A stretch of DNA of 64,000 nt from a virus (taxonomy: Duplodnaviria; Heunggongvirae; Uroviricota; Caudoviricetes), in IMG/VR virus record IMGVR_UViG_2703718772_000011; one strand, given 5' to 3'. Position numbers and translations under genes: made by a program. This document shows positions 2,392 to 63,789 of the stretch, piece after piece; position 1 is the stretch's first letter, and the number at the start of each line of letters is the position of its first letter. A model generated the notes under the pieces. That model was not told the origin of the DNA, made no database searches, and saw nothing but the letters and a program-made list of their open reading frames with translations.

Positions 2392-2574
2392 CTTCTTTCT
2401 CGATAGGTAAGTAAATACCTATTTTTGCATTTGATTTTATGTCTGGCAATCAAATAAAACGCGCCAGAAATGCAAACGAGAAGCTCTCTGGCGCGTTTTT
2501 GTGGTGCTGGGTATGTGATTGGCTTGCCCAGCACTATAAAGCTCTCTATGGGCTTTATTTTCAGTAGGGGAACG

Positions 2575-7253: not shown

Positions 7254-7311
7254 TTATTCATTGCGTGAGTTTACATTTATTGAGAGAACAAGACCAGACA
7301 GATAAAAAAAT

Positions 7312-11903: not shown

Positions 11904-11976
11904 GTATCACCAAATAAAGAGGGCCACTAAATATAGTGGCCCATGTTAATAGATAAGCACTTACCTATCAATGAAA

Positions 11977-15434: not shown

Positions 15435-16520
15435 TCACACAGCCTCCGAACTCTCCGCTTCGGTGAGGATTTCCTGACACAAAATATCCAATTTGCTCAG
15501 ATCAAATCCGCCGTCAGTATCGTGGACAATCTTGCAATAAGCAGATACCGACGCTCCCAGGCTATCGATTTTGCTGGTTTCAGTTGTGCTGGCTGTACCT
15601 TCCATCATTGATGACTTACGGATGAAGTTGCACACGACACCTTTTGCACCCATTGTTTTGAGGATGTTCTGGTACTTAATGCCTTCTTCATCGTTCTCAA
15701 TTACGGCGCGGAAACGCACGTAGTTGCCGCGAATTTGGTCATCAGCAACATCATCTTCCAGGTTAATGAATTTAGGCGCACTGGTTTCGTAGTGACTGAA
15801 ACTGCCGTCCGGGTTTACGATCATGTAGCCCGCCAGAGATCCAACATCTCCCCAATTTTGATGAGTCAGTGCACCGACACTGATAACTCCAGGAATGACC
15901 TCTTTGTGGTTGTGGTAATGCCCACTAAGCACGAGACGAAAGCCGATATCCTTTAACTCCTGCGCATCGATACCGACGTCAGGCATTGTTGGAATGGCTT
16001 TGTTAATGGATGTATGGATAACAACGTCATGATTATCACCTTCTACGCTCTTACGTAATGCTTTCAGATCGCTGATAAGCTCCGCATGATTGTTACGCCA
16101 GCTAATCAGGTGGACAGTCACATCGCCAATTTTTATTGAGTGTGGGCGCTTGCCACATACGATTACCACGCCGATAGAACTCAGCGATGCTGCTGCGTTG
16201 GCGCTATATACTGAATCGTTGGTTTCAAGATCGTGATTACCGGCCAGCATTACTACTGTCAGATCAAGCTCGTTGATAATCCACTTGTACGTTTCAGTTA
16301 CGTAATGCAAAACAGAAGGGGACACAGTTCCTCGGACGTGAAATGTATCACCGGCAACCAACATGTACTTACAACCGGCCTTCTTCATGGCGATGGCTGC
16401 TTCTTTCGTTGCTTCCAACTGTATTTCAAGTATGGAGTTAAGCCCCTCAGCGTTCGTCGTGGAGAACGCATCCCATTTATGGTAGTGGCAGTCAGAAATG
16501 ACGCCGTATGGCAAAGTCAT
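15435..16520 (-). CDS. SbcD/Mre11-like nuclease
   Basis: Calcineurin-like phosphoesterase motifs (SDCHYH, AGDTFH, GNHD). Confidence 0.85.
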   Translation of the reverse strand: MTLPYGVISDCHYHKWDAFSTTNAEGLNSILEIQLEATKEAAIAMKKAGCKYMLVAGDTFHVRGTVSPSVLHYVTETYKWIINELDLTVVMLAGNHDLETNDSVYSANAAASLSSIGVVIVCGKRPHSIKIGDVTVHLISWRNNHAELISDLKALRKSVEGDNHDVVIHTSINKAIPTMPDVGIDAQELKDIGFRLVLSGHYHNHKEVIPGVISVGALTHQNWGDVGSLAGYMIVNPDGSFSHYETSAPKFINLEDDVADDQIRGNYVRFRAVIENDEEGIKYQNILKTMGAKGVVCNFIRKSSMMEGTASTTETSKIDSLGASVSAYCKIVHDTDGGFDLSKLDILCQEILTEAESSEAV

Positions 16521-16774
16521 GTGTTTTTCCTTTGTGGTTATTTTGATACAAATTCTAAGAGCAATGAGGAGGTAAACAACTATGCATAACGGTATGTTAG
16601 GAATGAAACGAGCGCCTTAATATACAAAATTTATAAGTAAGTATATACCTATTTATCGTGGCGCAACTTTGCTTGTCTGTATGACTAAAAATAAGACAGG
16701 ATCACTGTAGAACGCTATGAGAGCTATTTTGAGGGGGCGTAGATTCTATCTACGCCAATATACGATCTGGAGGG

Positions 16775-18162: not shown

Positions 18163-19218
18163 ATGAGCGAAAACGGCAATAAAAACATAGCGATCGTTGA
18201 AGCATTTTCAGAAACAGATAAAAAGACAGGCGAAGTTGTTACGTTGGTTCCTAACACTAATAACACTGTTCAGCCTGTTGCTTTGATGCGTCTGGGCCTC
18301 TTCGTTCCGACGCTGAAATCGACATCCAGAGGAAGAAAGGGGCAAATGGTCTCTATGGATGCCTCTGCTGAACTCAAACAGCTGTCTCTGGCAAAAGCCG
18401 AAGGGTACGAAGACATAAGGATCTCTGGCCTTCGGCTTGATATGGATAACGACTTTAAAACGTGGGTGGGAATAATCCACGCGTTTGCCAAACACAAGGT
18501 TGTTGGCGATACTGTCACGTTGCCGTTCGTTGAGTTTGTAAGGCTGTGTGGCATTCCGACCGCCAGGTCATCAGCGAAGTTACGCAAACGCCTGGACAGT
18601 TCGCTAAGCCGTATTGCCACAAATACCATCTCGTTCCGTAGCAAAGGCTCTGATGAGTTTTACGTAACGCATCTTGTGCAAACGGCAAAATATAGTGTCA
18701 AGCACGATACGGTCGAACTGAAAGCAGATCCCAAGATTTTCGAACTCTACCAGTTCGACAAAAAGGTTCTTCTGCAACTCCGGGCTATAAACGAACTCTC
18801 AAGAAAAGAATCCGCTCAGGCGCTTTATACTTTTATTGAAAGTTTGCCGCCTGATCCGGCACCAATATCACTAGCCCGTTTACGCGCCAGACTTAATCTG
18901 ACAAGTCGCACTATTACTCAGAATGCGACGGTAAGAAAGGCTATGGAACAGCTGCGAGAGATAGGATATCTCGATTACACGGAAGTTAAGCGCGGAAACT
19001 CGGTCTACTTCGTCATCCACTATAGGCGGCCAAAGTTACGCCAGGCACAAATATCAACAAAAATCGATAATGATGAGACGGAATATAGCCTCCCAGATGA
19101 GAATCAAGATGACATTATCGACGTTGTGCCTGACGAAAAAGAAGGCAAAATGGTCATGTTGAGTAAAGAAGAACTGGCGCTTCTCGAAGAGTTGCGCAAG
19201 GCAAAGACTCGCAAATAG
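18163..19218 (+). CDS. repA: iteron-binding replication initiator (RepA-like)
   Basis: Only plus-strand gene in this region, flanked on both sides by iteron arrays with origin-like elements upstream; P1 oriR-repA-incA-like layout. Assignment by context. Confidence 0.6.
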
Positions 19219-20431: not shown

Positions 20432-20470
20432 GATAGGTAGATACTAACTTATATAAATTTTACTGTAAAC

Positions 20471-20746
20471 TCACTCAAAAGTGCTGATGCTTAAAATACG
20501 CTCAAGATGTTCGGCATCTTCATCACTGATTTGTTGAGTCTCTTCTACGTACCAACAGTTGCCGTTATGCCAACAAACACCATCATCATCAACCATCACT
20601 GAATCAGCGTCATGACCTGTATATTCAACGAGAATACGCTGGATCAGCGCGTCAGTTTCTTCGTCGTTAAGGCCATCGGCTTTGACCATAAAAAGCGGAA
20701 ACACGTCATAGACAGTGCTGGTAACGATTCGAACTAAAACTCTCAT
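20471..20746 (-). CDS. hypothetical acidic protein (91 aa)
   Basis: ORF preceded by the conserved initiation motif. Confidence 0.5.
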   Translation of the reverse strand: MRVLVRIVTSTVYDVFPLFMVKADGLNDEETDALIQRILVEYTGHDADSVMVDDDGVCWHNGNCWYVEETQQISDEDAEHLERILSISTFE

Positions 20747-20801
20747 GTGTTTTTCCTTTTGTGGTTAGTGTTTACTTATTTTGTTAGTTATGAATAGGCG
20801 A

Positions 20802-22152: not shown

Positions 22153-22353
22153 TTATTTCCCCTTTGCTTTGATTAATGAGTTGATAAACTTACGACCAGC
22201 AATAAGACCGATTACAGGAGCACCAAAACCAACGATAACTCCAAACATGACGGCTAAATCACTCTTGGTAGAAATCAGCGACGGAACCAGTAAACCGTAG
22301 ATGAGAGCCACTGAAAGGCCTGTGGCTACTGCCAATAGATAGATTTTGATCAT
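22153..22353 (-). CDS. small membrane protein (66 aa)
   Basis: Two hydrophobic helices; immediately upstream of the SPFH gene. Confidence 0.5.
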   Translation of the reverse strand: MIKIYLLAVATGLSVALIYGLLVPSLISTKSDLAVMFGVIVGFGAPVIGLIAGRKFINSLIKAKGK

Positions 22354-22415
22354 GTGTTTTCCTATGTGGTTGTTATGCGAAAATAATAAGTAAGTACTTA
22401 TATATTTTCAAGAGA

Positions 22416-22445: not shown

Positions 22446-24785
22446 TTACTCTTCTACTGACTCGGTGGGGTTGTCTTTTGCTCTTCGGTCGTCGATTGCC
22501 TGCAAAGCCGCAATGATTTCAGCCAGTGGCTTCTCCCGATACATCTCGACGATCTGCGATTTGGTGTATTTCTTGTCACCAATTTCAACTCGCCCGCTGG
22601 CGTTCTTTGGCAGGTATCCTTCTTCCAGCATGTACTCGACGAGCGATTCGATAACGTCGAGGCCACGAGTAGGATCGAAGTAGAATTTCCAGGTGCATTT
22701 GCCATACGGTGGTGCAACTTTGTTTTTGATGCATTCTGCGCCTACGTCCTGGCCGATCTTCTCTTTACCATCCTTCATCACCGATGCACCAAGACGGATA
22801 CGTACAGAAGCGTAGAACTTCGGTGAATCTCCACCTGGCGACGTAGTAGGGTCGCCAAACATTACACCGATTTTTGTGCGAACCTGATTCAAGAAGATGA
22901 TGCAGGCGTTGTATTTGCGTGCCCACAAAGCCAGAGTAGGGAAGTTCGCACTCGTCGCACGAGCCAGTGCCGTATTGTCGTTCATGTTTAGCTGATCTTT
23001 GTCTTTGGCAGTGCCTTCAGCCATCTTTTCGAACTTCTCGGCTTTGGAGTTCGGAACCATAGACGCAAGAGAGTCAGCCACGATACAGATTGGTGCTGAT
23101 TCGGGGATAAGCTCTTCATCACGAACCAATTTAAGTATTGTGCCGATCAACTCTACAGAGTCTTCGAAGGTATCTGGCTGCTTGTATACCCACTGACCGT
23201 CATCCTCATCTGCGTTCAGGCCATTGGCTACAGCCAGGCCAACGTCAAAACTGTTTTCATGATCGAGGAATACCGCCAGACCATCTTGTTTTTGAGCGGA
23301 GATCATCGCTGCTGTTGCAAGGAATGTGTTGTGGCTGATAATCCCGTTAGACCAGAAAGAGTGTGTTTCCGGCATCGCTACGTCGAACGTTGGCGCTTCA
23401 CCTTCCTCAATAGCCACGACTTCGTCGTAGAACAAGTTAGAGCCAATTACCGCTGCCAGTTGTGCAAACAGATGCTCGTTAAAACGATTCTTTCTGCCAA
23501 TGAAGGAGACATAGATTTCTCGCAGTTTGTCTATTCCGACACGATCGCCGCGGCCAATAACGTGGTCTACCAGAGCGTAGTCTTCACGGGTGGTCTTGGT
23601 GAGCGACTCGTAGAGTGATTTCACTAAGCCGCTGATGTGCGGAACATAGCCTGAGTAAGTGCGGTCAAAACCAATGTCCCGTTTGGTTGCCACTGATAAA
23701 CGTGCCGGAGATTCGAAACCAATCGTTGACAGAAAAAGGTCGTAATTAGAGCCACTGAATGACAGCCGGTAATATGTATTTTCATAACCCGCGACGTGTT
23801 TTTCAGAGATAGTTGACGTAATCCCCAGATTCAGGAGCATGAGGCGAATTTGCTGTAGCAGCAGCCCACTCGCGCTCACAACCTCAATGCAGCGACCATC
23901 ATTGACGTGGCATTCCAGCTCAAAGTAGCCGCGAAGGAATGCAATTTGAGCCTCGCTATTGGCGCGACGCACACTCAACGGAACCTGCTTGCCAGCAGCT
24001 TTCTCATACTCCAGACCATATTCTTTAAAAAGCAGCGAACGCACCTCTTTGCTAAACAGCACATGGTCTTCCGAGCCGTTATGTTTTCTCGTAACTGGCA
24101 TCTTGTCTGATACCAGCGAAATGAGGCGGTAGTACTCATCCTTGATGAAAGGATCTGTGTTAGAAAAATTCACTGAATTTTCAGAGGCCACGTATCCGTC
24201 AGCAATTAAATAGCCCATCAGTTTTGCGATATTGGCATCCAGGTGCTGATCGCCGAATTGATGTGTGCCAACCATTGAAGGAATCGTGTCGCCTACACTG
24301 ATTTTTTCAGCATGTCGCCAGACGACATTACCTAAGTCGTCAACCACACGGATTGGGTGACGGAACGTAGCCTCGATATAACCGCCTGATGCCAGCTTAA
24401 TACGCTTGAATTTGCGACGGTTGTTCCATGTCAGGTGTGAGGTCTTCTCTATCACGCCATTTTCATTGATGAGTCCAACGTTATGCTCTACATCGCGAGT
24501 AGTGCATGTCGCTTTGTACCCTTCAATCTCAAACAACTCTTTCACTGTTACCATTCCACGCTCCGTCAGCAGCATGGTGTCTGCGGTAACACATTTCCCC
24601 GCACTTGGAGGACCGAATACTTCGACGATACGACCACATGGGAAGCCGCCATCGTAACGACCAGAAATAGCTTTGTTTAACGGTGGAAAGCCTGTATCAA
24701 TCCAATGAGTTACTTTCTGAATTTCGTCGTTGCTACCGATTTTCTTTTTCAGAGCAAGTGCCAGTGCGGATTTTCCTTTTGCCAT
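22446..24785 (-). CDS. recA: RecA-family recombinase interrupted by an intein
   Basis: Exteins (about 357 aa) align with E. coli RecA (GRIVEVFGPPSAGK / TFLATAAMISAQ..., IIFLNQVRTKIGVMFGDPTTSPGGDSPKFYASVRIRLG). A 422-aa insert splits the Walker A loop. Confidence 0.85.
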   Translation of the reverse strand: MAKGKSALALALKKKIGSNDEIQKVTHWIDTGFPPLNKAISGRYDGGFPCGRIVEVFGPPSAGKCVTADTMLLTERGMVTVKELFEIEGYKATCTTRDVEHNVGLINENGVIEKTSHLTWNNRRKFKRIKLASGGYIEATFRHPIRVVDDLGNVVWRHAEKISVGDTIPSMVGTHQFGDQHLDANIAKLMGYLIADGYVASENSVNFSNTDPFIKDEYYRLISLVSDKMPVTRKHNGSEDHVLFSKEVRSLLFKEYGLEYEKAAGKQVPLSVRRANSEAQIAFLRGYFELECHVNDGRCIEVVSASGLLLQQIRLMLLNLGITSTISEKHVAGYENTYYRLSFSGSNYDLFLSTIGFESPARLSVATKRDIGFDRTYSGYVPHISGLVKSLYESLTKTTREDYALVDHVIGRGDRVGIDKLREIYVSFIGRKNRFNEHLFAQLAAVIGSNLFYDEVVAIEEGEAPTFDVAMPETHSFWSNGIISHNTFLATAAMISAQKQDGLAVFLDHENSFDVGLAVANGLNADEDDGQWVYKQPDTFEDSVELIGTILKLVRDEELIPESAPICIVADSLASMVPNSKAEKFEKMAEGTAKDKDQLNMNDNTALARATSANFPTLALWARKYNACIIFLNQVRTKIGVMFGDPTTSPGGDSPKFYASVRIRLGASVMKDGKEKIGQDVGAECIKNKVAPPYGKCTWKFYFDPTRGLDVIESLVEYMLEEGYLPKNASGRVEIGDKKYTKSQIVEMYREKPLAEIIAALQAIDDRRAKDNPTESVEE
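23328..24593 (-). mobile_element. intein with LAGLIDADG homing-endonuclease domain inside recA P-loop
   Basis: Starts with Cys right after GPPSAGK, ends His-Asn followed by Thr (+1); internal KLMGYLIADGYV and FLRGYFELECHVNDG blocks. Confidence 0.8.
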
Positions 24786-26058: not shown

Positions 26059-27087
26059 TTACAGAGAGTCCAGCTCTCTCAGTAGGTCATCCAGACCTTC
26101 ATCTTCCGTCGCAGATGCGGCTGCTACAGATGTCGCTGCGACTGCTTCAGACTCTTTGACTGATACGGCAACGGCAGCGGAACTTGCTTCTGGTTTAAAT
26201 TCAGTTTCAACGGCACGGAGGATTTCTTCATCAACCAGACTGGTTGGTTCAGAAGCTGGGGTGTGAGCGGTTGCTACAGCAGTCGCACCCTCCGTATGAC
26301 CAGTGACAGAGCCAAATCCAGGTAGTGCCGCAGCCGATGTTTTCGCGGTTGAGGAAATTGCTGGTGCAGATGCTGCGGCAGTTGGTGCAGCGATGCCAAT
26401 CAGACGACCCATAGTGCGAACTGTCGACAGAAGACGAGTTTCATCAGCCTGATTTGCGTATGCGATCAGATCATGCTGGGTGTTCCAGAATTTATCTTCG
26501 ATATCGCCTTTGTAGACTTTACGCTTAGGCGAGACGTCATATTTGGTATCGCGACCAGAGCCAGTACGTTTAATCAGGAATGCGTAGCCTTCCTCTTTGC
26601 TCAGTGGATTGCCGATATCATCAGCGATGTCTTCGGTGATTGCTTTGCAGATATCATCGAATACAGTAGACGGCAGCTCGATTAACTGGCATTTCTCAGC
26701 ATCTGCGAAATCCTCACGAGCAGAAAGAATGCCGTTGACCAGGTAGCGAGGAGTGGCACGCATTTGACCGATGCGTTCTTCCATTGCTTTGTTACCCTTG
26801 TGACGAGCGCGACCTTCCATCACCATTTCGCATAGCTGACAAGCGCGACCGTGAGTATGTTGCTCACAAATATAAGCGTTGGTTGCTTCTTTACCTTCCT
26901 CGTTCTGATACTTAACGTAGTGCATACCGAAAGTCTGGAAGAACTTACCGTTTGGGTCGTCTTTATTCGGGAAGATGCGGATATAGTTGACGCCGTCTTT
27001 TAAGCGAGTCAGATCAACGTTGTTGCCACGTTTGGCGGCAATGTCTTCACGAGTTTTGTTAAGCAAATCAAGTAATGTCTTAGACAT
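26059..27087 (-). CDS. single-stranded DNA-binding protein (T4 gp32-like, putative)
   Basis: His/Cys spacing H56..C74..C83..C86 like the gp32 zinc site, Ala/Ser linker, acidic C-terminal tail EDEGLDDLLRELDSL. Confidence 0.55.
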   Translation of the reverse strand: MSKTLLDLLNKTREDIAAKRGNNVDLTRLKDGVNYIRIFPNKDDPNGKFFQTFGMHYVKYQNEEGKEATNAYICEQHTHGRACQLCEMVMEGRARHKGNKAMEERIGQMRATPRYLVNGILSAREDFADAEKCQLIELPSTVFDDICKAITEDIADDIGNPLSKEEGYAFLIKRTGSGRDTKYDVSPKRKVYKGDIEDKFWNTQHDLIAYANQADETRLLSTVRTMGRLIGIAAPTAAASAPAISSTAKTSAAALPGFGSVTGHTEGATAVATAHTPASEPTSLVDEEILRAVETEFKPEASSAAVAVSVKESEAVAATSVAAASATEDEGLDDLLRELDSL

Positions 27088-27204
27088 GTGTTTCTCCTTG
27101 TTGTGATTTGGCCGATGGCGCTATGCGCGTTGGGCTTTCGTTCATTCGTGGCTCTTTCGAGCTGTTAAATGATAGATCAGTACTTACTTATTATCTATCA
27201 AAAA

Positions 27205-28884: not shown

Positions 28885-29068
28885 AGCATCGTTGGTTTGC
28901 AAGACAGACCTTATGTAAGCAGTTTTAGTAAAGCAGTCTCAGTTCAGTGTTATCTTCTGATTTCCCTTCTTCGTGAGTCTCCTCCTTAAGTGCCTAAGTA
29001 AGTCCCAATCTATACAGATCAAATTCTCGCCGCACTATGTGGCTCACAAAATTAAGAAGGTAATATCT

Positions 29069-29284
29069 ATGTCTAATAAAATGACTGGTTTAGTAAAATG
29101 GTTTAACTCTGATAAAGGCTTTGGCTTTATTTCTCCTGCTGATGGCAGTAAAGATGTTTTTGTACATTTTTCGGCAATTCAGAGTAATAATTTCCGCACT
29201 TTGGAAGAAGGCCAGCAGGTCGAATTCTCTATCGAGAATGGTGCTAAAGGCCCAGCAGCAGCAAATGTCGTTGCTCTAAGCTGA
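29069..29284 (+). CDS. cspA: cold-shock protein CspA family
   Basis: [38 protein letters not shown]..., near-identical in pattern to E. coli CspA; start at the internal Met preceded by AAGAAGG. Confidence 0.9.
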
Positions 29285-34523: not shown

Positions 34524-34618
34524 GCGTTTTTCCTTTGTTTTCTAATGAGCGTTCAACTTCTTATATAAATATATCATTATCTATCGTAAGTGGTTACTTA
34601 TCGTTAAGGCTGTTTTGT

Positions 34619-36825: not shown

Positions 36826-37038
36826 TTAACAGATTCTGACGGCTAAAGACCCGGAGCCGGTATTGAGAAGCGTGAAGCGTTTGTTGTTAAGTTCGAATAT
36901 AAATCCAGTTGTGTCATTCACACCAACCTGAATCTGCTCATTCGGTAGATCGGTGAGGATGTCAGCTACACACTCATCAACTAATTTCTGTACGTGTCCG
37001 ATCTCAAGAGCGATTAGGCTGGAAATAGTGGTGTTCAT
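36826..37038 (-). CDS. hypothetical protein (70 aa)
   Basis: Small ORF. Confidence 0.4.
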   Translation of the reverse strand: MNTTISSLIALEIGHVQKLVDECVADILTDLPNEQIQVGVNDTTGFIFELNNKRFTLLNTGSGSLAVRIC

Positions 37039-37289
37039 TCAATCAATCCATTCTAACTTATACTATGGTAAGGAATACTACTAAAATTTGTATCAATACT
37101 GAATACATTCATATCATATGCAAGTTGATTTTCTTACCTATTTTTGGCTAATTTTTCTCCGTGCAATGGCCTTTAACCGGTCTTTTAAGTGCCTATCGAA
37201 AAAAATGATAATAGCTTTACAACCCTAACCTTTGATGTAATATCGGTAAGCACTTACCAGAGAGAATTGAACGCGCAAAGGTTGTAACC

Positions 37290-37676
37290 ATGTCTGATAA
37301 CAAGATTGAATTTATAGAAAGTCGCTACGCTGCTTTTATCGCAGGGTTGATTGAATCCTCACCTATGAGCCAGGCCCAGATAGCCAAAACAATTGGGTAT
37401 AAAAACGCCAACAACCTTTCTTTAATTAAAAGCGGCAAAATTCCTTTGCCTATCGATAAGGTTCGTCCGCTGGCGCTGGCACTGGGTATTGAGCCAAGTC
37501 GTCTTATGATGATGGTGCTGGAAGAACGCCAACCCGAACTCGCAGCATTTTTATACAAAGAAGGCACTGCTCCTCTTAACGAGGACGAAAAACAGGTTCT
37601 TGCTGCATATAACGAGCGATTCGGTAAAGAGAAAGGCGCATCACAAAAGGTTGTTGAGGCCATAAAGTCTCTATGA
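37290..37676 (+). CDS. XRE-like helix-turn-helix transcriptional regulator
   Basis: HTH segment SQAQIAKTIGYKNANNLSLIKSGK; palindrome GGTAAGcacTTACC about 30 bp upstream of its start. Confidence 0.6.
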   Translation: MSDNKIEFIESRYAAFIAGLIESSPMSQAQIAKTIGYKNANNLSLIKSGKIPLPIDKVRPLALALGIEPSRLMMMVLEERQPELAAFLYKEGTAPLNEDEKQVLAAYNERFGKEKGASQKVVEAIKSL

Positions 37677-38774
37677 AAAATTTACACGAATAAGCTCTGT
37701 TGATAGACGATCTCCCTTAAATTTGTGGTCAATTTCGTCTAAATCGGGTTGCTCTACGATTGATGCGATGTACGTCGAGAAACTTTCTAAGGCGTCTCGC
37801 ATCTCGTCCATATAATCGTGCCGGTCGTAGACCCGATCTATCCCCTCAAGACTGTGGTTCATGATTTTACGTGATACCTCCTGGCTTATGCCTAATGCTG
37901 GGAAGTAACTACGCGCAGTACGGCGCAAATCTCGGGGTGTAAATGGCTCAAGCTCCATCAGTTCTGGTCGTTCCAGAATACGACGTAATGCCTGGGCTAT
38001 TGCCACTTTAGACATAGGAAGGTCTTTCCCGATTTTTTTATTCGAAGGCACGAGCCACTGGCTGTCTTTACCATATTCGAACAACTCTTCAATACAAGTG
38101 CGCATTAATGAGCTTAAAGGCAGAGAATGCTCACGGGCAGATTTGTTCCTCTTGCCTTGATTCCAAACCCCACGCTTAAGATTGAACTCACTTTTTTTAG
38201 CACGCAGTACTTCGTCAGGTCGTCTTGCTGATACAAGACACAGTCTGGCCGCCCATTTTGTACCAGCGCACACATTGAAGTAGTCCCATATATTCCAGAA
38301 CACCCATACCTCTGCGTCAGTCAGCTTCCGCTCGCGGGGCGTGGGCTTTGCGCCACCGGCAACTTTGTTAAGTGACATATCGTTTAACGGTGACACGTCT
38401 ATCATCCCCTGGAAGGCGCACCAGCTAAGGAACTGCTTCATCAGAGAGAAAACGCGGCGGCCCATAACAATTTTGCCATCCAGTATTAGTGGGTTGACCA
38501 GTTGGTTCACCATGAACCTATTAATATCACTTACTTTTACATCGGCAATGTGCGGCAAAACATGTATCAAAATACAATGAACAGCGATCTCTGGCCGACG
38601 TCTGGTTATCAGCAGAGATAAGCGAGTGAATAACATGAATGCGTCCGAGAATCTCATGTCATTGCTGACCTGTGAGATCATAACGGCCTGCATTTGAGAT
38701 GCTCTTTCGAGATACTCTATCGCCTCTTTTGAGGTGTTCTCCGCAGCGCGTGCTCTGTCAAAGCTATTTTTCAT
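37671..38774 (-). CDS. tyrosine site-specific recombinase
   Basis: C-terminal box II-like TPRDLRRTARSYF...MNHS...RVYDRHDY with candidate catalytic Tyr. Confidence 0.6.
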   Translation of the reverse strand: MKNSFDRARAAENTSKEAIEYLERASQMQAVMISQVSNDMRFSDAFMLFTRLSLLITRRRPEIAVHCILIHVLPHIADVKVSDINRFMVNQLVNPLILDGKIVMGRRVFSLMKQFLSWCAFQGMIDVSPLNDMSLNKVAGGAKPTPRERKLTDAEVWVFWNIWDYFNVCAGTKWAARLCLVSARRPDEVLRAKKSEFNLKRGVWNQGKRNKSAREHSLPLSSLMRTCIEELFEYGKDSQWLVPSNKKIGKDLPMSKVAIAQALRRILERPELMELEPFTPRDLRRTARSYFPALGISQEVSRKIMNHSLEGIDRVYDRHDYMDEMRDALESFSTYIASIVEQPDLDEIDHKFKGDRLSTELIRVNFS

Positions 38775-40841: not shown

Positions 40842-41230
40842 GCTGGCTAACCATACCAGCCGGGCTACGTCGCCGCTTTTTAACCCAGTATAAACGACAT
40901 AATTGAACAAAATGACGTAACAGAATGGGCGGTCAGTGGCTAAGAATCCGGGAGTCATATGGAGTTGAAAATATACCAACCGCCCATTCTGTTACTTCAT
41001 CGGAGGGAACATGAATGTTCCCTCCTGCGTTCTGCAATCACACTCGCTCAGTGTGTCCCATTTCGGTAACGAGGCTGGAAACTGACCTCGCTGGTGTTTG
41101 GCTTATTAGGCTACTGCCAGATAGACTTCTTCGTTTGCACTTGTATTTAAGTTCAAACAGTCGCGTCTCAACGAAAACAAAGTCATCTTATACATAAAAG
41201 ATAAGTAAGTAAATACTTATCATGATGTTT

Positions 41231-41521
41231 TTATTCGGTTGTGACTTTTTTGATCAAGGCCACTCTACGACTAGGTGTTCTTGTGATGGTGGCAGTGAAT
41301 CGTTTCGCCTGGATAGTAATGGTTTCGTTCTCCTTAAGTTGCCCGTAGCGAGTTTCCACCAGGGTGCCAAGACGCCACAGACCATCATCGATACGTTTAT
41401 GACTAGCAAATTTAATCAGCAACAGTTTTACGACTAACTGACCTACGTAAAAGGCGAATGCGACTCCGGCCGCTAAGAAATAGGTGGCCAACCACCAGTC
41501 CCAAGAAGTTAAATTGCTCAT
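41231..41521 (-). CDS. membrane protein (96 aa)
   Basis: N-terminal transmembrane segment WWLATYFLAAGVAFAFYVGQLVV. Confidence 0.5.
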   Translation of the reverse strand: MSNLTSWDWWLATYFLAAGVAFAFYVGQLVVKLLLIKFASHKRIDDGLWRLGTLVETRYGQLKENETITIQAKRFTATITRTPSRRVALIKKVTTE

Positions 41522-41882: not shown

Positions 41883-43201
41883 TCTTTATCTCCGATTCGA
41901 TCTTCGGTATCGCGTAAGCAACGCGGCCATTTCAGTCGTGGGTGGCGTAAGCTGCCGTCCGGTGTTTTCTCGTGACAATGAACCTCGACAATACGACCAC
42001 GGTACTTCTCTTTGTTGTTCCAGATCTCGTCCAGATATTTATGCTTAATGCCGCTCGCACGAACGATGACGCCGTTTTCAAGACGAATAACAATTTTTCC
42101 AAGTGTGTTGGCAAAACCAGAGTCCGGGTCGCCCGGCTCAAAGTCGATAATTTCACCATCTTCTGAATCTTCGTCTTTTAACTTCCACCAGCTGCGGGTA
42201 CGTTTAAACTCGTAAACAGAGTTCGGATCTTTGCCCATCTCCCCTTCTTCGTTATCGTCCAGGCGTTTCATGAAGCGTTCGATGAAGTCTTCGTGGCTAT
42301 GGATGATGTAGAACGGATGCAGGTGAATGTCTCGTGCGTAGCCTTCACTGCGATCGTTTTTGAACAACGCCACGAGCATAGCCAGGCGCTCTTTCAGCTT
42401 CATACCTGTCTTTGCATACTCTTTGGATTTAGCCTGTGCCCGCCATTCCGGTAGGAAGAAGTCGAAAACATGATAAATAGCGCCAATTGCCTGCACGTTC
42501 TTTTTGCGCAATGCAGATACGGACTGGTTAAATGAACCGGCTGTTCCTTCACCATCGAAGAAGATGTGTTTGTGGCCTGAAAGTTTGCCTAATTCGAGCA
42601 TTGCTGGCTTTAGGTGATCGAGAGACGTGATTGGATTACCAGTACGAGAAAGGAAGTTAACCTCTTCCTCGTCAACAATAACCTCGCAAATTACTCGCAA
42701 ACCATCGAGCTTAAGACTGCCAATCATCGGCCATTTTGCTTTAGGATTTGGCTTGAAGGGGTATTTGTCGCCTTTTTCTTTATACGGTGACGCCAGCTGC
42801 ACCTCGAATTTCGGAATGGGATTTTCAAAAACCTTGTTGCATAGGCTAATCCCAACACCTGCTTTCGGGTCTTTTAAGAGGAAACGACGGAACACGTCCT
42901 GCCCATCGGCGCACATTGACGCCACGATAGACTCAACAGCTGCTATTGCTGCGTTCCCCGTCAGCTCGCGAGAGGCCAGCTTATTCAGTACATCAATGGC
43001 TTTTTCGTCACTTGGGACGGACTCACTAAGCGGCTCTGCCACTTTGTATTTCTTTACCCCAAAACGGATGAAAGGGTTGAGCATCAATGAAACCATGCTT
43101 TGTTCAAAGTCATCCATGTTGGCCAATGCCTCTTTTTTTGCATTGGTTCCCATAGCTTTCATTTCGTCCAGCTTATGCTTAAGTGCGATCAACTTTTTCA
43201 T
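41879..43201 (-). CDS. ATP-dependent DNA ligase-like nucleotidyltransferase
   Basis: Motif I KLDGLR (K-x-D-G-x-R); 440 aa. An RNA-ligase identity cannot be excluded by eye. Confidence 0.7.
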   Translation of the reverse strand: MKKLIALKHKLDEMKAMGTNAKKEALANMDDFEQSMVSLMLNPFIRFGVKKYKVAEPLSESVPSDEKAIDVLNKLASRELTGNAAIAAVESIVASMCADGQDVFRRFLLKDPKAGVGISLCNKVFENPIPKFEVQLASPYKEKGDKYPFKPNPKAKWPMIGSLKLDGLRVICEVIVDEEEVNFLSRTGNPITSLDHLKPAMLELGKLSGHKHIFFDGEGTAGSFNQSVSALRKKNVQAIGAIYHVFDFFLPEWRAQAKSKEYAKTGMKLKERLAMLVALFKNDRSEGYARDIHLHPFYIIHSHEDFIERFMKRLDDNEEGEMGKDPNSVYEFKRTRSWWKLKDEDSEDGEIIDFEPGDPDSGFANTLGKIVIRLENGVIVRASGIKHKYLDEIWNNKEKYRGRIVEVHCHEKTPDGSLRHPRLKWPRCLRDTEDRIGDKE

Positions 43202-43680
43202 TGTTGTTTTGCCTCCATATGTTGATCGATTTGCTCATGTGTTTCTTTTGTTGTTTCTTCAAGCAACGCCGCATACACGTCAGTGATCGCTGTTTGTGAT
43301 GTGGCGCTCTTCTTAACCATGCTATTAATCGTTACACTGTCACGTTTTCGTTTTATAGTTCTGGCTTGTTTATTCCGTTCTTCAACCTCCTTAATGAGTG
43401 CGGTCATATCTTCGAAATACAGAGATTCTCCTTTACGAATCTCTTCAACCATCATTTTTAACGCCTTGCATTTGCCTGCTTTGATAGCGGTTGCGCACGA
43501 CTGGAATGAAGTTCGAGGAAGACGGTTTTCTTTGAAGGCAAGAATGGTGTGCTGGCAAACGGAGTAGCTGCAATATGCCGACTCACCGTTTATCTTTACT
43601 TCCTCACAACGAAGTGAATAACCATTATTTCCTGAAATAGAGGGGATTTTTGACAAATCAGCTTTCACAACTACCGCCAT
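43198..43680 (-). CDS. hypothetical protein (160 aa)
   Basis: ORF. Confidence 0.5.
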   Translation of the reverse strand: MAVVVKADLSKIPSISGNNGYSLRCEEVKINGESAYCSYSVCQHTILAFKENRLPRTSFQSCATAIKAGKCKALKMMVEEIRKGESLYFEDMTALIKEVEERNKQARTIKRKRDSVTINSMVKKSATSQTAITDVYAALLEETTKETHEQIDQHMEAKQQ

Positions 43681-43735
43681 AAATAATCTTGTACTTACCT
43701 ATCGTTATTTGCGTAAAAAACGACGCGCGGAGAGA

Positions 43736-44512
43736 TTACCAACTTCCCCAGCTAATCATCTTGCGCTGATTGCTTTCTAAGCGATAGGGGGCAAGAAGCT
43801 CTGTGACATGATTGGTGGCGTATGATTTAGCCTCTTGCTCTATCATCGGTAATTCGTTAGCAATCCTGACCACCTTCCAAGCAAATTCCGCCATTACGCC
43901 ATCACATGCCTTCCCAGCATCAATAACGATATGCACCAGATCCAACTGGCTTTTGCACATGTCGCAAAGAGACGCATACTCACTCTCTCTGATTACATTT
44001 ACGGCATCATTAGCCCCTTTATTAAGCAAGACTTCCAACAGATTTTTCGGGGTAACGAAATCTGCTTTCAGAGATAATGTCTTTTCACCACTTATCGAAC
44101 GCAAGTACTCTTCGTAGTTATTCTTCATCAAACCGCTGCTGCGCATTGCTAGAACTGCTTCTTGAATGGCCGCTTCAATAGTTTCGTCGTTTGAAAGACA
44201 AAAAACGGTATTTGTGTAGATCACTCTGCCATCAAGCCATGCTCCAACCTGCACTTTAAGACTGAGCGGGTTTTCTTTGCTAATAAAAACAACTAATGCA
44301 GAACGTCGTGCACAAGAAGGTTCACCCCATACGTGTAACTTAACCTTCAGATAAGGTAGCCCCGGTAGCGGGATCTCGACCAAACGAGTGGCGATATGAT
44401 CCATTGCTGTTTTTACCGCTTTTTCAATGATGTCTAGTCGATTGCTCTCGCTGATTTCTAAACCAGTTTTATCAATGATGTCGCAGGCTAATTTCTGAAT
44501 TTCGTCTTTCAT
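43736..44512 (-). CDS. hypothetical protein (258 aa)
   Basis: ORF. Confidence 0.5.
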   Translation of the reverse strand: MKDEIQKLACDIIDKTGLEISESNRLDIIEKAVKTAMDHIATRLVEIPLPGLPYLKVKLHVWGEPSCARRSALVVFISKENPLSLKVQVGAWLDGRVIYTNTVFCLSNDETIEAAIQEAVLAMRSSGLMKNNYEEYLRSISGEKTLSLKADFVTPKNLLEVLLNKGANDAVNVIRESEYASLCDMCKSQLDLVHIVIDAGKACDGVMAEFAWKVVRIANELPMIEQEAKSYATNHVTELLAPYRLESNQRKMISWGSW

Positions 44513-44587
44513 ACCAACTCCTAGCTAACAGATGAAAGTATTCTTACAGAAAGATAAGTAATCATCTACTTATTTTAGCGGCACTTG

Positions 44588-47234: not shown

Positions 47235-47984
47235 TTAATTAGATAGGGGATCAATAAACCGCCGTGCTTCTTCCAGTTCTTCTGGAAAGTGGGCGGAAAT
47301 AAGGCGCTCTGGAACGATTTCCATTAGCCAGATAGCGGAGAAAATTGTGCGTATGCGCTTGCTGCGAGGGATGGTGCGCAAACGCTCCAGAATCCACTCA
47401 AAATAGCTTTCCTGAATCGGGTTGAACTGCATGTCTCCCATATGCTTAAAGCTAACAAGAGAGTCATCCAGACGGGTTGTTGCGCGTCTGGCTAATTTCT
47501 CTTCAAATATCTCAATCAGTTCTGGCTGCCACAAATGCTGTGGGCGCGGCAGCTTGTCCCACAGCCGTCGTGCAGCTGCGGAAAGAACGGTGGAGATAAA
47601 GTAGTCGTATGAGCAGCAATAGCGATCCGCAAACTGGCGTGCTTTCCATAGCGACGTTTTATTGGCAGTCGACAACTCCTGATAAGGCAGACGTTTTAAC
47701 CCGGTGGTGAACGGAGCTGTTTCAAAGTGTTCGCGACCGTGCGTCAGCATGATATTTGAGTACTGACGTTTGTATGCCTCCGTAAAAAGACAGGTGGCCA
47801 TGAGAGGATGCATGTCGCGGTAATCAAACCACTTCGTCTCGAAGAGTTCAGCCTCGTCTTTACAGCGCGACAAACCAATGTTTTCAGCGACCCACTTGTC
47901 CATAACAGCGGTATTCCACTCTGTCATGAAGTCGTACTGGTCGTTGTCGATGGTATCGAAAAAGATTTGGCTCATGTGGCTCAC
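47235..47984 (-). CDS. hypothetical protein (249 aa)
   Basis: ORF upstream of the helicase gene. Confidence 0.5.
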   Translation of the reverse strand: MSHMSQIFFDTIDNDQYDFMTEWNTAVMDKWVAENIGLSRCKDEAELFETKWFDYRDMHPLMATCLFTEAYKRQYSNIMLTHGREHFETAPFTTGLKRLPYQELSTANKTSLWKARQFADRYCCSYDYFISTVLSAAARRLWDKLPRPQHLWQPELIEIFEEKLARRATTRLDDSLVSFKHMGDMQFNPIQESYFEWILERLRTIPRSKRIRTIFSAIWLMEIVPERLISAHFPEELEEARRFIDPLSN

Positions 47985-48092
47985 CTGGTAGGTAGTTACT
48001 TACTTATCACAATGAGCGGATGATAGCGACTGGTGGCAGTTTTTGGAAGTGGAAACGGAAGGGAGTTGTTCTGGTGGTGTCTTTTTAAAAGA

Positions 48093-48147
48093 CCTGCTTC
48101 TGTATATATTTAATAAGTTACTTATTATTTATATATACAGAAGCAGG
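48093..48147. repeat. 17-bp perfect inverted repeat (cctgcttctgtatatat / atatatacagaagcagg) with 21-nt AT-rich loop, copy 2 of 2
   Basis: Arms match the element at 1716..1776; loop contains AATAAGTTACTTATT. Confidence 0.8.
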
Positions 48148-48258: not shown

Positions 48259-49026
48259 ATGGACGATTTATCGGTATACGCGAGATCATTGGATAAGGCT
48301 AAATACTATGTTTACTGTCTCTATGATACAGAAGACAAGATGAAAAGACCGTTTTACATAGGAAAAGGCAAATCGACTCGTTGTCTCGATCACATCAAGT
48401 ATCCCGATGACTCTCCCAAATCCATGCGGATCAAAGAACTTTTGGCTAATAAAAAATTAGGCATAGATATACTTCGTCATGGTATGGATGAAACCACAGC
48501 CAAACTTGTTGAGGCGACATGCATCGACCTTATGGGGGTCGGAGAGCTTACGAATAAGGTACGAGGAAGTGGTTCCATGATGGGCAGAATATCACTGGAC
48601 GCCTACCATCACTTAGTGCTGCAAGAGGAAACTGAAATTGCTCCTGAGCACGCCGGTCTTGCCTTCCTGCTAAACAGCACCTACAAGTCAGGAATGTCCG
48701 CTCTGGCATTATATGAAGCTACGCGTGGCGTATGGGCAAAGGTTCCAAGAGACGAGAATCTCAAATATGCCTACGCTACATATGGTGGGCTGATAATGGA
48801 AGTTTATCAGATTGAATGCTGGGTCAAAGCCGGTTCTCAGCAGTACTTTACAAGGGATATAGCTCTTGGCCCCGACACAAAACGTTATGAATTTGTTGGC
48901 AGAATAGCCGATGAGCATATTAGAAAACTGTATGTAGGCAAATTAATCAAGAAGCCACCAAGCTACGGTAGCCCTTTTGTGAAGGTTGGGGTGGTTAGGA
49001 CTGAACATAGTGTTAGCGCGGCATAA
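48259..49026 (+). CDS. GIY-YIG nuclease domain protein
   Basis: N-terminal YYVYCLYDTEDKMKRPFYIGKGKSTRCLDH fits the GIY-(x10-11)-YIG...R...H pattern. Confidence 0.6.
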   Translation: MDDLSVYARSLDKAKYYVYCLYDTEDKMKRPFYIGKGKSTRCLDHIKYPDDSPKSMRIKELLANKKLGIDILRHGMDETTAKLVEATCIDLMGVGELTNKVRGSGSMMGRISLDAYHHLVLQEETEIAPEHAGLAFLLNSTYKSGMSALALYEATRGVWAKVPRDENLKYAYATYGGLIMEVYQIECWVKAGSQQYFTRDIALGPDTKRYEFVGRIADEHIRKLYVGKLIKKPPSYGSPFVKVGVVRTEHSVSAA

Positions 49027-52686: not shown

Positions 52687-52876
52687 GAAAAGTCAAATCG
52701 GGATGGCGGATTTATATCACACTTCCCCTTTCAATTATAGGTATATACTTACCTATCTATGCATATACCGTTTAACGGCTGTTCAAATTCGTATCTAGTA
52801 ACTCACTAATATATCCCTATGATTGCGGCTGTGAGATCGCATTTTAAACCTCACAGCCATATAAATAATGTCTAAA

Positions 52877-56798: not shown

Positions 56799-56891
56799 GT
56801 TGAATATGCTCCTTGATTTGGCGGGCTATCCTTGCCCGCCATTAAGTAATTACTTACCTATTTTTACCGATATAAAATTTTTTTTCCACCA

Positions 56892-63740: not shown

Positions 63741-63789
63741 CCTGTCAGCGCCACAATGATAGTAAATTAGTACTTACTTATCCAGATAC

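What the first reader, a model, noticed from the sequence alone, without database searches (positions are those of the whole stretch)
41199..41222. Family of operator-like palindromes (ATAAGTA / ATAGGTA ... TACTTAT / TACCTAT) recurring in at least 12 intergenic regions
Representative: ATAAGTAagtaaaTACTTAT at 41201..41220. Related palindromes with 2-6 bp spacers occur at about 2403, 7242, 16633, 22386, 34586, 37245, 38800, 44554, 47990, 52738, 56843, 63769 and inside the loop of the 48093 element, nearly always in the gaps just upstream of minus-strand operons. One copy (GGTAAGcacTTACC) lies about 30 bp upstream of the HTH regulator gene at 37290. This looks like a dispersed operator set for a dimeric element-encoded regulator, or a class-specific promoter element.
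Basis: seen in the sequence. Interest (0 to 1): 0.6.

Follow-up and report, generated by a model that had tools for sequence, protein, structure and literature searches.

The report
Dispersed repressor operators of a phage-plasmid
A 20-base palindrome repeated about 25-30 times in front of the lytic genes of this SSU5-type phage-plasmid is most likely the binding site through which one element-encoded repressor keeps the whole virus silent while it lives as a plasmid.

Summary
The window is an E. coli SSU5-family phage-plasmid, 98% identical to phage Cyrano. The palindromes form one fixed 20-bp site, ATARGTAAGTACTTACYTAT, not arms with 2-6 bp spacers. There are 12 copies with ≤3 mismatches (0.01 expected) and 25 with ≤5 (0.3 expected), about 80% of them in the 11% of non-coding DNA. 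One listed copy (38800) is a LexA box instead.

The same site fills orthologous gaps in SSU5 and two Klebsiella relatives. An Acinetobacter relative carries a symmetrically changed version, ATCAGTCAGTACTGACTGAT, at 33 sites.

The two halves vary independently and show no G·U strand bias. This fits a dimeric protein, not a hairpin.

The palindrome overlaps conserved sigma-70-type promoters in several registers: over the −35, inside the spacer, at −8..+12, and at +5..+24. Varying placement of this kind is typical of a repressor operator.

The best candidate binder is the XRE-type HTH protein at 37290..37676. It is expressed in Cyrano lysogens, and a degenerate copy covers the +1 of its own promoter. 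It is missing from the lytic isolate SSU5, which keeps the sites. Binding is inferred, not shown.

The kind is known (L5 stoperators, P1 C1 operators); this family's regulon appears undescribed.

The parts
41201..41220 (.). Representative palindrome, ATAAGTAAGTAAATACTTAT (2 mismatches to consensus). It lies 10 nt after the stop of gene 41231..41521 (-). Read on the minus strand, it contains TTTACT, which serves as the −35 of a conserved promoter TTTACT-17-TAAGAT pointing towards a conserved ~700-nt stretch and the tRNA cluster.
187..206 (.). Palindrome copy (3 mismatches). It overlaps the stop codon of the RNase H-like gene 203..847 (-). The gene it precedes lies beyond the window start.
   Evidence: orthologues at SSU5 79904 and pJN2 16842
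1361..1380 (.). Weak copy (5 mismatches) in a gap of minus-strand genes.
2403..2422 (.). Copy (2 mismatches) ending 11 nt before the ATG of gene 1798..2391 (-). A conserved TTGCCA-17-(TG)AAAAAT promoter ends at the first two bases of the palindrome, so the site would span about −8..+12.
7242..7261 (.). Copy (4 mismatches) upstream of the thymidylate synthase gene (6123..~7230, -).
11949..11968 (.). Copy (2 mismatches) upstream of nrdA (9588..11903, -). An invariant TTGATA −35 overlaps the start of the palindrome, the palindrome fills the 17-bp spacer, and the −10 is TAACAT. A terminator-like hairpin follows directly.
16633..16652 (.). Copy (2 mismatches), 112 nt upstream of the SbcD-like gene 15435..16520 (-).
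20433..20452 (.). Copy (3 mismatches) at the start of a small minus-strand gene (the CYRAN_60 homologue).
20760..20779 (.). Weak copy (6 mismatches; the upstream half is intact) before gene 20471..20746 (-).
22386..22405 (.). Copy (2 mismatches). A terminator (22421-22441) precedes it. A full promoter TTGAAA-17-TATTAT carries the palindrome in its spacer. Gene 22153..22353 (-) follows 32 nt downstream.
27172..27191 (.). Copy (2 mismatches) upstream of the gp32-like SSB gene 26059..27087 (-). The promoter-like TAGATA-17-TATCAT has the palindrome in its spacer.
34582..34601 (.). Weak copy (6 mismatches) between the CobT-like and AAA (CobS-like) genes.
37242..37261 (.). Degenerate copy (5 mismatches) with a conserved GGTAAGYRCTTACC core, 28 nt before the ATG of the HTH gene. 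It covers about −8..+12 of that gene's promoter and faces the first minus-strand gene, 36826..37038.
37216..37243 (+). Sigma-70-type promoter TTTACA-16-TAATAT of the HTH gene, one of only 3 promoter-like hits found in 36-49 kb. It is conserved in the Yersinia and Buttiauxella relatives.
37290..37676 (+). Candidate binder: a 128-aa XRE-type HTH protein, 100% identical to Cyrano CYRAN_45 'putative repressor'. It is convergent with the integrase gene and overlaps that gene's 3' end.
   Evidence: expression
43683..43702 (.). Copy (4 mismatches) ending 2-10 nt before gene 43198..43680 (-). A terminator-like T-run precedes it.
44554..44573 (.). Copy (4 mismatches in the centre, arms perfect) between the primase gene and gene 43736..44512 (-). 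A TGTAAGAAT extended −10 lies 5 nt downstream.
47988..48007 (.). Copy (3 mismatches) ending 12 nt before the ATG of gene 47235..47975 (-). A conserved TTCCAA-17-TATCAT promoter lies upstream, so the site would span about +5..+24.
48113..48132 (.). Weak copy (5 mismatches) in the loop of a long inverted repeat. Membership is doubtful.
52737..52756 (.). Copy (2 mismatches), 50 nt upstream of the holin gene. Palindrome positions 17-22 read TATAAT.
56842..56861 (.). Copy (2 mismatches) between the tail J gene and the tail fibre gene.
63762..63781 (.). Copy (3 mismatches) between the tail M and tail L genes. The promoter-like TGGATA-17-TATCAT has the palindrome in its spacer.

Best explanation
The palindromes are operators of a genome-wide silencing regulon.

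Proposed mechanism (inferred): a dimeric, element-encoded DNA-binding protein recognises the 20-bp dyad ATARGTAAGT|ACTTACYTAT. The dyad sits inside or against the core of the sigma-70-type promoters of the lytic genes, so bound protein keeps host RNA polymerase off them. At the copies that lie just after a start site or in very short gaps inside operons, it may instead block the polymerase. The replication, nucleotide-metabolism, recombination, tail and lysis genes therefore stay off while the element replicates as a plasmid. Losing the protein would release all of these units at once.

The most likely binder is the XRE-type HTH protein at 37290..37676. It would also limit its own synthesis through the degenerate copy over its promoter's +1.

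Shown by sequence analysis: the site, its excess over chance, its conservation, its dyad nature, its overlap with promoter-like elements, and its change in a distant lineage.

Inferred: that a protein binds it, that binding represses, and which protein it is. I put the HTH protein as binder at about 0.45.
For: - Excess and placement: 12 hits with up to 3 mismatches against 0.01 expected. With up to 5 mismatches: 25 in the window, 36 in SSU5 and 32 in pJN2-26, against 0.2-0.35 expected; about 80% are intergenic.
- Conservation: orthologous gaps in SSU5, pJN2-26 and the Klebsiella plasmid NZ_CP125183 keep the site while the flanks diverge.
- Dyad read by a protein rather than a hairpin: across 73 distinct sites the two halves are complementary at 504 pairs, against 501±6.9 after column shuffling (p=0.36). 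G·U-type mismatches number 68 on the sense strand and 63 on the antisense strand.
- Variable register over conserved promoters:
  - the −35 lies inside the palindrome at 41201 (TTTACT-17-TAAGAT);
  - the palindrome fills the spacer at nrdA (TTGATA-17-TAACAT) and at 22386, 27172 and 63762;
  - it spans about −8..+12 at 2403 and at the HTH promoter;
  - it spans about +5..+24 at 47988.
  Promoter scores of at least 10 occur at 20 sites in the gene direction and 4 in the mirrored direction.
- Specificity switch: the Acinetobacter relative NZ_CP035046 has 33 sites of ATCAGTCAGTACTGACTGAT, with A→C at two positions of each half.
- Binder:
  - HTH homologues sit next to the integrase gene in 865 plasmids of this family.
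  - The fold is a generic XRE HTH.
  - In Cyrano lysogens the HTH gene reads 96 against a background near 7. Nearly all genes behind palindromes read 5-20 (CYRAN_34, behind the 44554 copy, reads 44). The other clearly expressed genes (toxin-antitoxin pairs, the parA operon, RepA, int) have no palindrome upstream (PMC9928086).
  - The lytic isolate SSU5 lacks the int+HTH module, a ~3-kb deletion relative to plasmids 93% identical to it. It keeps the sites, so the HTH protein is not needed for lytic transcription.
Against: - No binding or expression experiment exists for this family in the literature I could search.
- About half of the sites carry a −10-like TATYAT in one fixed register (palindrome positions 17-22), and most lack a recognisable −35. 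This also fits an activator-dependent promoter class.
- The site is nearly unchanged between elements whose HTH proteins are only 48-56% identical. Immunity repressors that far apart often differ in specificity.
- SSU5's sites show no decay despite the absence of the HTH gene. This needs either a recent deletion or another function for the sites.
- The lineage switch in Acinetobacter does not single out the HTH protein, because every protein of that element has diverged.
- Gene calls used for the intergenic statistics are my own heuristic.
Confidence: 0.6

Rival explanations
1. The palindrome is the recognition element of a phage-specific promoter class. An element-encoded activator, comparable in role to P1 Lpa, binds it next to a −10 hexamer and recruits host RNA polymerase to promoters that lack a −35. 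The copy at the HTH gene would then switch on the first lytic unit while blocking the repressor's promoter.
For: - Positions 17-22 read TATYAT in about half of 61 sites, and position 22 is T in 41 of 61 in the gene direction against 29 of 61 mirrored.
- In Acinetobacter the gene-proximal 3 bp of the dyad are relaxed to TAT/TAC, giving TATACT, TACAAT or TATTAT, while the distal half is strict.
- No consensus −35 appears in the logo.
- Sigma-70-like promoter patterns are depleted in the window, 53 found against about 95 expected.
- Sites sit inside late operons, as P1 and T4 late promoters do.
- P1 has 11 late promoters with a 9-bp inverted repeat bound by Lpa (PMC10695390).
- SSU5 keeps good sites without the HTH gene.
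Against: - There is no Lpa homologue, and I found no regulator conserved from the enteric elements to Acinetobacter.
- The register is not fixed. At 2403, 47988 and the HTH promoter the palindrome lies at or after the start site of a conserved, complete sigma-70 promoter, where an activator cannot act. At 41201 it covers the −35.
- Several sites have good −35 and −10 hexamers of their own.
Confidence: 0.2
2. The sites are operators, but the binder is another protein of the element. One candidate is one of the two ParB-like proteins, acting like KorB of IncP plasmids. Another is the small regulator-like proteins outside the window.
For: - SSU5 keeps the sites but lacks the HTH gene.
- The family encodes ParB-like proteins and other putative regulators.
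- The site is more conserved than the HTH protein.
Against: - A copy of the site covers the HTH gene's own promoter in the window, Yersinia, Buttiauxella and pJN2-26.
- The HTH gene is the one regulator-like gene that is clearly expressed in lysogens in this region.
- None of the alternative candidates was tested here beyond tblastn.
Confidence: 0.1
3. A host regulator binds the sites. The outer arms match the NarL/NarP heptamer TACYYMT (own knowledge), which would tie lytic genes to host physiology.
For: ATARGTA and TACYTAT fit AKRRGTA and TACYYMT. This is a resemblance recalled from memory, not a test.
Against: - The arrangement is divergent 7-6-7, not the 7-2-7 of NarL/NarP sites.
- The inner six bases are also conserved.
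- The site changes with the element lineage (Acinetobacter).
Confidence: 0.04
4. The palindrome acts as a hairpin in mRNA or as a DNA cruciform, serving as a processing site, transcript stabiliser, weak terminator or translational operator next to ribosome-binding sites.
For: - The RNA folds into 7-11 bp stems of −4 to −8 kcal/mol.
- Several copies end 10-12 nt before a start codon.
Against: - There is no site-by-site covariation between the arms (p=0.36).
- There is no sense-strand G·U preference (68 against 63).
- At many sites the predicted start lies inside or after the palindrome, so the hairpin would not be fully transcribed.
Confidence: 0.03

Closest known systems
Mycobacteriophage L5 / cluster A immunity repressor (gp71) with operators and 'stoperators'
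   Same: More than twenty copies of one short site are spread over the genome, both in promoters and in short intergenic gaps. They silence the lytic genes of a prophage (PMC9283540). The lytic phage D29 is a repressor-less deletion derivative of a temperate relative (PMC5712189), which parallels SSU5 here.
   Different: The L5 site is an asymmetric 13-mer read by a monomer with two DNA-binding domains, and its orientation follows transcription. Here the site is a 20-bp dyad, and the candidate binder is a small XRE HTH protein with no sequence relation to gp71.
Bacteriophage P1 C1 repressor and its dispersed operators
   Same: P1 is also a plasmid prophage whose repressor controls many operators scattered over a ~100-kb genome, overlapping sigma-70 promoters at varying positions (P1 record annotation).
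   Different: P1 operators are asymmetric 17-mers. C1 is a 283-aa protein with no homologue here. In P1 the late genes are controlled separately, through Lpa.
Bacteriophage P1 late promoters (Lpa, 9-bp inverted repeat at −22)
   Same: A short inverted repeat stands next to a −10 hexamer in place of a −35, repeated at many late operons.
   Different: There is no Lpa homologue. The dyad here is 20 bp, overlaps the −10, and occurs at several registers, including downstream of start sites.
KorA/KorB global regulon of IncP plasmids; conserved inverted repeats of the phiC31 repressor (own knowledge)
   Same: Palindromic operators at many promoters of one mobile element are bound by small element-encoded dimers.
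   Different: The sequences and proteins are unrelated. Not tested here.
LexA SOS box
   Same: It is a 20-bp dyad placed at variable positions over promoters. One true LexA box lies in the window at 38801-38820.
   Different: The family lacks the CTGT-N8-ACAG signature.

Membership tests
Dimeric XRE-type HTH repressor with palindromic operators | The regulator carries an HTH_3/HTH_19-type domain. | tested here: inconclusive
   Pfam HTH_19 scores 19.7 bits, below the 30.2 cut-off. Other evidence agrees with an XRE fold: PHROG 8 'transcriptional regulator' at 1.3e-11, a profile hit to XRE-type repressor domains in the PDB, and AlphaFold plus Foldseek pointing to the XRE fold (434 repressor, C proteins, HigA).
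Dimeric XRE-type HTH repressor with palindromic operators | The operator is a dyad whose half-sites are read independently. | tested here: met
   The consensus is a 20-bp perfect palindrome, and there is no covariation between the halves.
Dimeric XRE-type HTH repressor with palindromic operators | An operator lies over the regulator's own promoter. | tested here: met
   The GGTAAGCACTTACC core at 37245-37258 lies directly after the −10 of TTTACA-16-TAATAT. The arrangement is conserved in Yersinia, Buttiauxella and pJN2-26.
Dimeric XRE-type HTH repressor with palindromic operators | The protein binds the site and represses transcription. | not testable with these tools
   This needs EMSA or footprinting, ChIP-seq and reporter assays.
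L5-type stoperator system | Many copies are dispersed over the genome, in promoters and in short intergenic gaps. | tested here: met
L5-type stoperator system | The site is an asymmetric 13-bp sequence whose orientation follows the direction of transcription. | tested here: not met
   The site is a symmetric 20-bp dyad.
L5-type stoperator system | The repressor is a gp71-like two-domain monomer. | tested here: not met
   The candidate is a 128-aa single-HTH XRE protein.
P1 C1 operators | A C1 homologue and a 17-bp asymmetric operator. | tested here: not met
   tblastn with P1 C1 finds nothing better than E=5, and the site sequence and symmetry differ.
P1 Lpa-dependent late promoters | An Lpa homologue is present. 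| tested here: not met
   tblastn with P1 Lpa gives a best E of 1.3.
P1 Lpa-dependent late promoters | The inverted repeat stands at a fixed distance upstream of a −10, with no −35. | tested here: inconclusive
   About half of the sites have a −10-like hexamer at positions 17-22 or 20-25. Others have the −10 upstream of the palindrome or about 10 nt downstream of it.
LexA box | CTGT-N8-ACAG | tested here: not met
   Only the 38801-38820 site has this signature.
RNA hairpin element | Compensatory changes keep the arms paired, with G·U tolerated on the transcribed strand only. | tested here: not met

The most novel reading that the evidence does not exclude
The dyad is not a plain operator but a composite promoter-and-switch element read by a still unidentified protein of the element. 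That protein would turn on some 30-40 promoters lacking a −35 across the genome, and would shut the repressor gene through the copy over its start site. This would be an Lpa-like late-transcription system with an unrelated protein. Alternatively, the dyad could act as a symmetric roadblock that stops elongating polymerase from either direction.
Probability: 0.2. Interest if true: 0.6.

Novelty: new member of a known kind. Interest (0 to 1): 0.45.

Why it matters
SSU5-type phage-plasmids are common in clinical Enterobacteriaceae and Acinetobacter. They include pHCM2 of S. Typhi, parts of pMT1 of Y. pestis, and resistance-carrying Klebsiella elements. The HTH gene alone is found in 865 plasmid records. 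Their lysis-lysogeny control is essentially undescribed in the literature I could search.

A defined operator and a candidate repressor give three things:
- a direct handle for testing how these elements stay silent and how they are induced;
- a way to predict immunity groups, since the enteric AAGT-type and the Acinetobacter CAGT-type sites differ;
- a sequence signature for recognising lytic transcription units in this family.

Tried and rejected
- **Sigma-70 −10 reading of the arms.** ATAAGT and TACTTAT lack the −11 A / −7 T pattern, so this was rejected.
- **Fixed-register −10 at positions 17-22.** My first count (32 of 61 sites) was inflated, because the palindrome's own TAT nearly passes the threshold and the mirrored side gave 26 of 61. 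I kept only the weaker asymmetry at positions 21-22.
- **Homologues of P1 Lpa and C1.** None found.
- **RNA hairpin.** Rejected by the tests.
- **Linking the HTH protein to the site by covariation:**
  - The genome-contig scan gave only 6 loci, all enteric-type or uninformative.
  - Distant HTH homologues (P0076, P0081, P0083, Lichenibacterium) lie in unrelated contexts with no comparable palindrome.
  - One contig had no DNA available.
  - The Asn→Arg change in the recognition helix that accompanies the A→C switch in Acinetobacter is suggestive. It is not consistent as a simple code, because Photorhabdus has Lys there with an AAGT-type site.
- **A regulator conserved in all genomes including SSU5 and Acinetobacter.** None found by tblastn.
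- **Literature.** Searching by motif sequence and by topic returned nothing on this regulon. A 2026 bioRxiv preprint on a phage-plasmid promoter (10.64898/2026.08.19.745698) was listed but could not be opened. The P1 genome paper was not held.

Full report
**What the window is.** Megablast of 36000-48500 against phage records gives Escherichia phage Cyrano (OV696614, 97.9% identity), CMS-2020a and PhiR41_1. Salmonella phage SSU5 follows at 80%. The annotation of Cyrano and SSU5 shows an SSU5-type siphovirus phage-plasmid. Nearly all lytic genes are on the window's minus strand: tail, lysis, helicase, primase, ligase, pol III alpha, gp32/UvsX/UvsY-like recombination genes, and NrdAB. Most plasmid and moron genes are on the plus strand: RepA, toxin-antitoxin pairs, and the HTH gene. 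The parA operon is the exception; it lies on the minus strand.

- The representative ATAAGTAAGTAAATACTTAT is at 41201-41220.
- An unbiased, strand-specific 7-mer test of non-coding against all DNA ranks TACTTAT first (13 of 16 copies intergenic, p about 1e-10).
- The consensus ATARGTAAGTACTTACYTAT has 12 matches with up to 3 mismatches, against 0.01 expected.
- There are 25 matches with up to 5 mismatches, against 0.3 expected. Twenty of them are intergenic, although coding DNA is 89% of the window.
- After removing overlapping registers I list 29 sites with up to 6 mismatches.
The 38800 site is a LexA box instead: TACTGTATAAGTAAACAGTA, CTGT-N8-ACAG.

**Anatomy.** The '2-6 bp spacer' disappears once relatives are read. 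In Klebsiella phage-plasmid pJN2-26 the site is a perfect 20-bp palindrome, ATAGGTAAGTACTTACCTAT, with three exact copies. SSU5 has 36 sites and pJN2-26 has 32 with up to 5 mismatches in 100 kb each, against 0.2-0.35 expected. A more distant Klebsiella plasmid, NZ_CP125183, has the same arms, ATAAGTAA-N4-TTACTTAT.

A logo of 61 intergenic sites in gene orientation shows information over all 20 positions. It is highest at GTA (positions 4-6) and TAC (positions 13-15). The flanks are A/T-rich, and the gene-proximal side has a mild extra signal, Y-A-T.

Alignments of orthologous gaps show the palindrome conserved while neighbouring non-coding DNA diverges.

**DNA-protein site or hairpin?** Two tests speak against a hairpin.
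- If the arms had to pair, changes in one arm would be matched in the other within each site. Across 73 distinct sites the number of complementary positions is 504, against 501±6.9 after shuffling the columns of one arm (p=0.36).
- If the sense RNA had to fold, G·U-type mismatches should outnumber A·C-type ones. They do not: 68 against 63.

The RNA stems are modest, at −4 to −8 kcal/mol. Two half-sites that each stay close to one consensus but vary independently are what a symmetric protein dimer reads.

**Relation to promoters.** A position-weight scan around 79 enteric sites finds better sigma-70-type promoters in the gene direction than in the mirrored direction. Scores of at least 10 occur at 20 sites against 4. 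Of the 16 minus-strand promoter-like hits of the consensus scanner, 7 fall on palindromes. The palindrome's place in the promoter differs from site to site, and each arrangement is conserved among relatives.
- At 41201 the palindrome contains the −35 (TTTACT-17-TAAGAT).
- At nrdA an invariant TTGATA overlaps its start and the palindrome fills the 17-bp spacer before TAACAT/TACTAT. The sites at 22386, 27172 and 63762 are similar.
- At 2403 a conserved TTGCCA-17-(TG)AAAAAT ends at the first two bases of the palindrome, so it would cover about −8..+12. The HTH gene's own promoter has the same geometry.
- At 47988 a conserved TTCCAA-17-TATCAT lies upstream, so the palindrome would lie at about +5..+24, directly before the ribosome-binding site.

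A site that always overlaps the polymerase footprint, but at different places, is typical of a repressor operator. P1 C1 operators behave this way in the annotated P1 record, and LexA boxes do too (own knowledge). At −8..+12 and +5..+24 an activator could not act.

Some copies lie in gaps that hold little more than the palindrome and a ribosome-binding site. The terminase-portal gap in SSU5 (2031) and pJN2-26 (40580) is an example. There, a roadblock of the L5 stoperator type is conceivable; this is an inference.

**A lineage-specific switch.** The Acinetobacter baumannii plasmid NZ_CP035046 has the same gene order. Its top intergenic words are TCAGTCA and ACTGACT. It has 33 sites of ATCAGTCAGTACTGACTGAT with up to 6 mismatches, against 3 expected. 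Compared with the enteric site, A has become C at two positions of each half, symmetrically and at all sites. This is what co-evolution with a binding protein produces.

In that genome the half distal to the gene is nearly invariant. The outer three bases of the proximal half are relaxed to TAT or TAC, giving −10-like TATACT, TACAAT or TATTAT. So a −10 overlaps the operator's end at many sites. This accounts for the directional bias I first saw in the window.

**Who binds?** The candidate is the 128-aa protein at 37290..37676, 100% identical to Cyrano CYRAN_45 'putative repressor'.
- It is an XRE-type HTH protein. The Pfam hit is weak, but PHROG 8, a PDB profile hit and the predicted fold agree.
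- Homologues lie next to the integrase gene in 865 plasmids of this family: Escherichia, Salmonella, Yersinia pestis, Enterobacter, Klebsiella and Acinetobacter.
- Its promoter, TTTACA-16-TAATAT, is one of only three promoter-like hits found in 36-49 kb. The conserved core GGTAAGCACTTACC follows the −10 directly.
- In published RNA-seq of LF82 lysogens the gene reads 96 against a prophage background near 7. Nearly all genes behind palindromes read about 5-20 (CYRAN_34, behind the 44554 copy, reads 44). The other clearly expressed genes have no palindrome upstream; these are KacT and its antitoxin, the parA operon, CYRAN_40 and CYRAN_43, int, HicAB and RepA. The minus-strand parA operon is among them (PMC9928086; site list).
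- SSU5, isolated as a lytic phage, lacks the gene. Plasmids 93% identical to it carry about 3 kb more at that spot, holding int and the XRE gene. So the protein is dispensable for lytic growth, as a repressor would be. The same relation holds between D29 and L5-like phages (PMC5712189).

None of this shows binding. The HTH proteins are only 48-56% identical between elements that share the site. SSU5's sites are not decayed. The switch in Acinetobacter cannot single out this protein. I put the HTH protein as binder at about 0.45, and 'repressor operator, whatever the binder' at about 0.6-0.7.

**Rivals.**
- An activator-dependent promoter class, like P1 late promoters with their 9-bp inverted repeat bound by Lpa (PMC10695390; P1 record), explains three things: the −10 overlap, the missing −35 at many sites, and the internal sites in late operons. 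It does not fit the sites at and after start sites, and there is no Lpa homologue. I give it 0.2.
- Another element protein as binder, such as the ParB-like proteins acting in a KorB-like way: 0.1.
- A host factor. The arms resemble NarL heptamers (own knowledge), but the arrangement is wrong and the site follows the element lineage: 0.04.
- A hairpin function: 0.03.

**Comparison with known systems.** Functionally this looks like the dispersed operator systems of other prophages. L5 gp71 has more than twenty 13-bp sites in promoters and short gaps (PMC9283540). P1 C1 operators, and from my own knowledge the phiC31 conserved inverted repeats and the IncP KorA/KorB regulon, are further examples. 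It is not a member of any of those families: the site is a 20-bp dyad and the candidate protein is an unrelated small XRE HTH. I found no description of this regulon, but subscription literature is not covered.

**Verdict.** The feature is real, strongly non-random and conserved. It is a new member of a known kind and of moderate interest, because the element family is clinically widespread and its control is unexplored.

**Caveats.** Gene calls for the statistics are heuristic. Promoter assignments are sequence matches supported by conservation, not mapped start sites. Sites from related genomes are not independent observations.

Noticed in passing
window 38801-38820: A LexA box, TACTGTATAAGTAAACAGTA, lies 27 nt upstream of the integrase gene (37671..38774, -). 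It is conserved at the same place in Cyrano, pJN2-26, NZ_CP125183, Yersinia pestis and Serratia. The integrase gene is convergent with the HTH gene and overlaps its 3' end by 6 nt. SOS-induced int transcription would therefore run antisense through the repressor gene, which is a possible induction route. A second conserved LexA box lies outside the window, in SSU5 (88009) and pJN2-26 (23730), before a small gene.
   Followed up: partly
window ~48075-48170 and ~1700-1795: Two long inverted repeats (GCCTGCTTCTGTATATAT ... ATATATACAGAAGCAGGC, ~18-bp stems) with A/T-rich loops that hold a weak copy of the motif. Copies are also present in SSU5 (33473, 78319) and pJN2-26 (15285, 38548, 74858). Their function is unknown; a bidirectional terminator, a centromere or an origin are possibilities.
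   Followed up: no
window 11921-11942 with 11943-11971: Upstream of nrdA, the predicted promoter (TTGATA-17-TAACAT) is followed at once by a strong terminator-like hairpin, GGGCCACTATATTTAGTGGCCC+TCTTTATTT, conserved in four genomes. The predicted start would fall inside the 5' arm. Transcripts from this promoter might therefore escape a terminator that stops upstream transcripts. Similar GC hairpins follow the palindromes at 56842 and 63762.
   Followed up: partly
window 36000-49000 (and the whole window): Sigma-70-type promoter-like hexamer pairs are depleted: 3 found against 21.3±4.9 in shuffles for 36-49 kb, and 53 against about 95 over the whole window.
   Followed up: no
window 22446..24785 (-): The RecA/UvsX-like recombinase is 779 aa because it carries an intein with a LAGLIDADG endonuclease at about residues 73-486. 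The SSU5 homologue is 358 aa.
   Followed up: partly
window 28891-29309 (+): A full-length cspA thermoregulator 5' leader (Rfam RF01766, 187.6 bits) with a cold-shock protein gene at 28973..29284. It is a host-like moron in the plasmid-gene block next to HicAB.
   Followed up: no
window 48259..49026 (+): A GIY-YIG (LEM-3-like) endonuclease gene on the plus strand. Cyrano annotates a different, minus-strand gene at the corresponding place. It may be a mobile homing-endonuclease insertion.
   Followed up: no
window 39799-40452 (-) and 40460-41200: A cluster of four tRNA genes (Ser, Thr, Tyr, Asn). About 700 nt of apparently non-coding sequence precede it. The start of this stretch (TTTGTTTTCGTTGAGACGCGACTGTTTGAAC) is conserved in SSU5 directly after the predicted 41201 promoter. 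It has no Rfam match.
   Followed up: no
window ~19230-19330: Repeated CCACTGTAG / CCACTATAG words lie just downstream of repA (18163..19218, +). They are enriched among intergenic 7-mers and look like iterons.
   Followed up: no
L002 42596-42761 (SSU5): SSU5 lacks about 3 kb holding int, the XRE gene and neighbouring genes, relative to E. coli plasmids 93% identical to it. This would make the type phage of the family a natural repressor-less derivative.
   Followed up: partly
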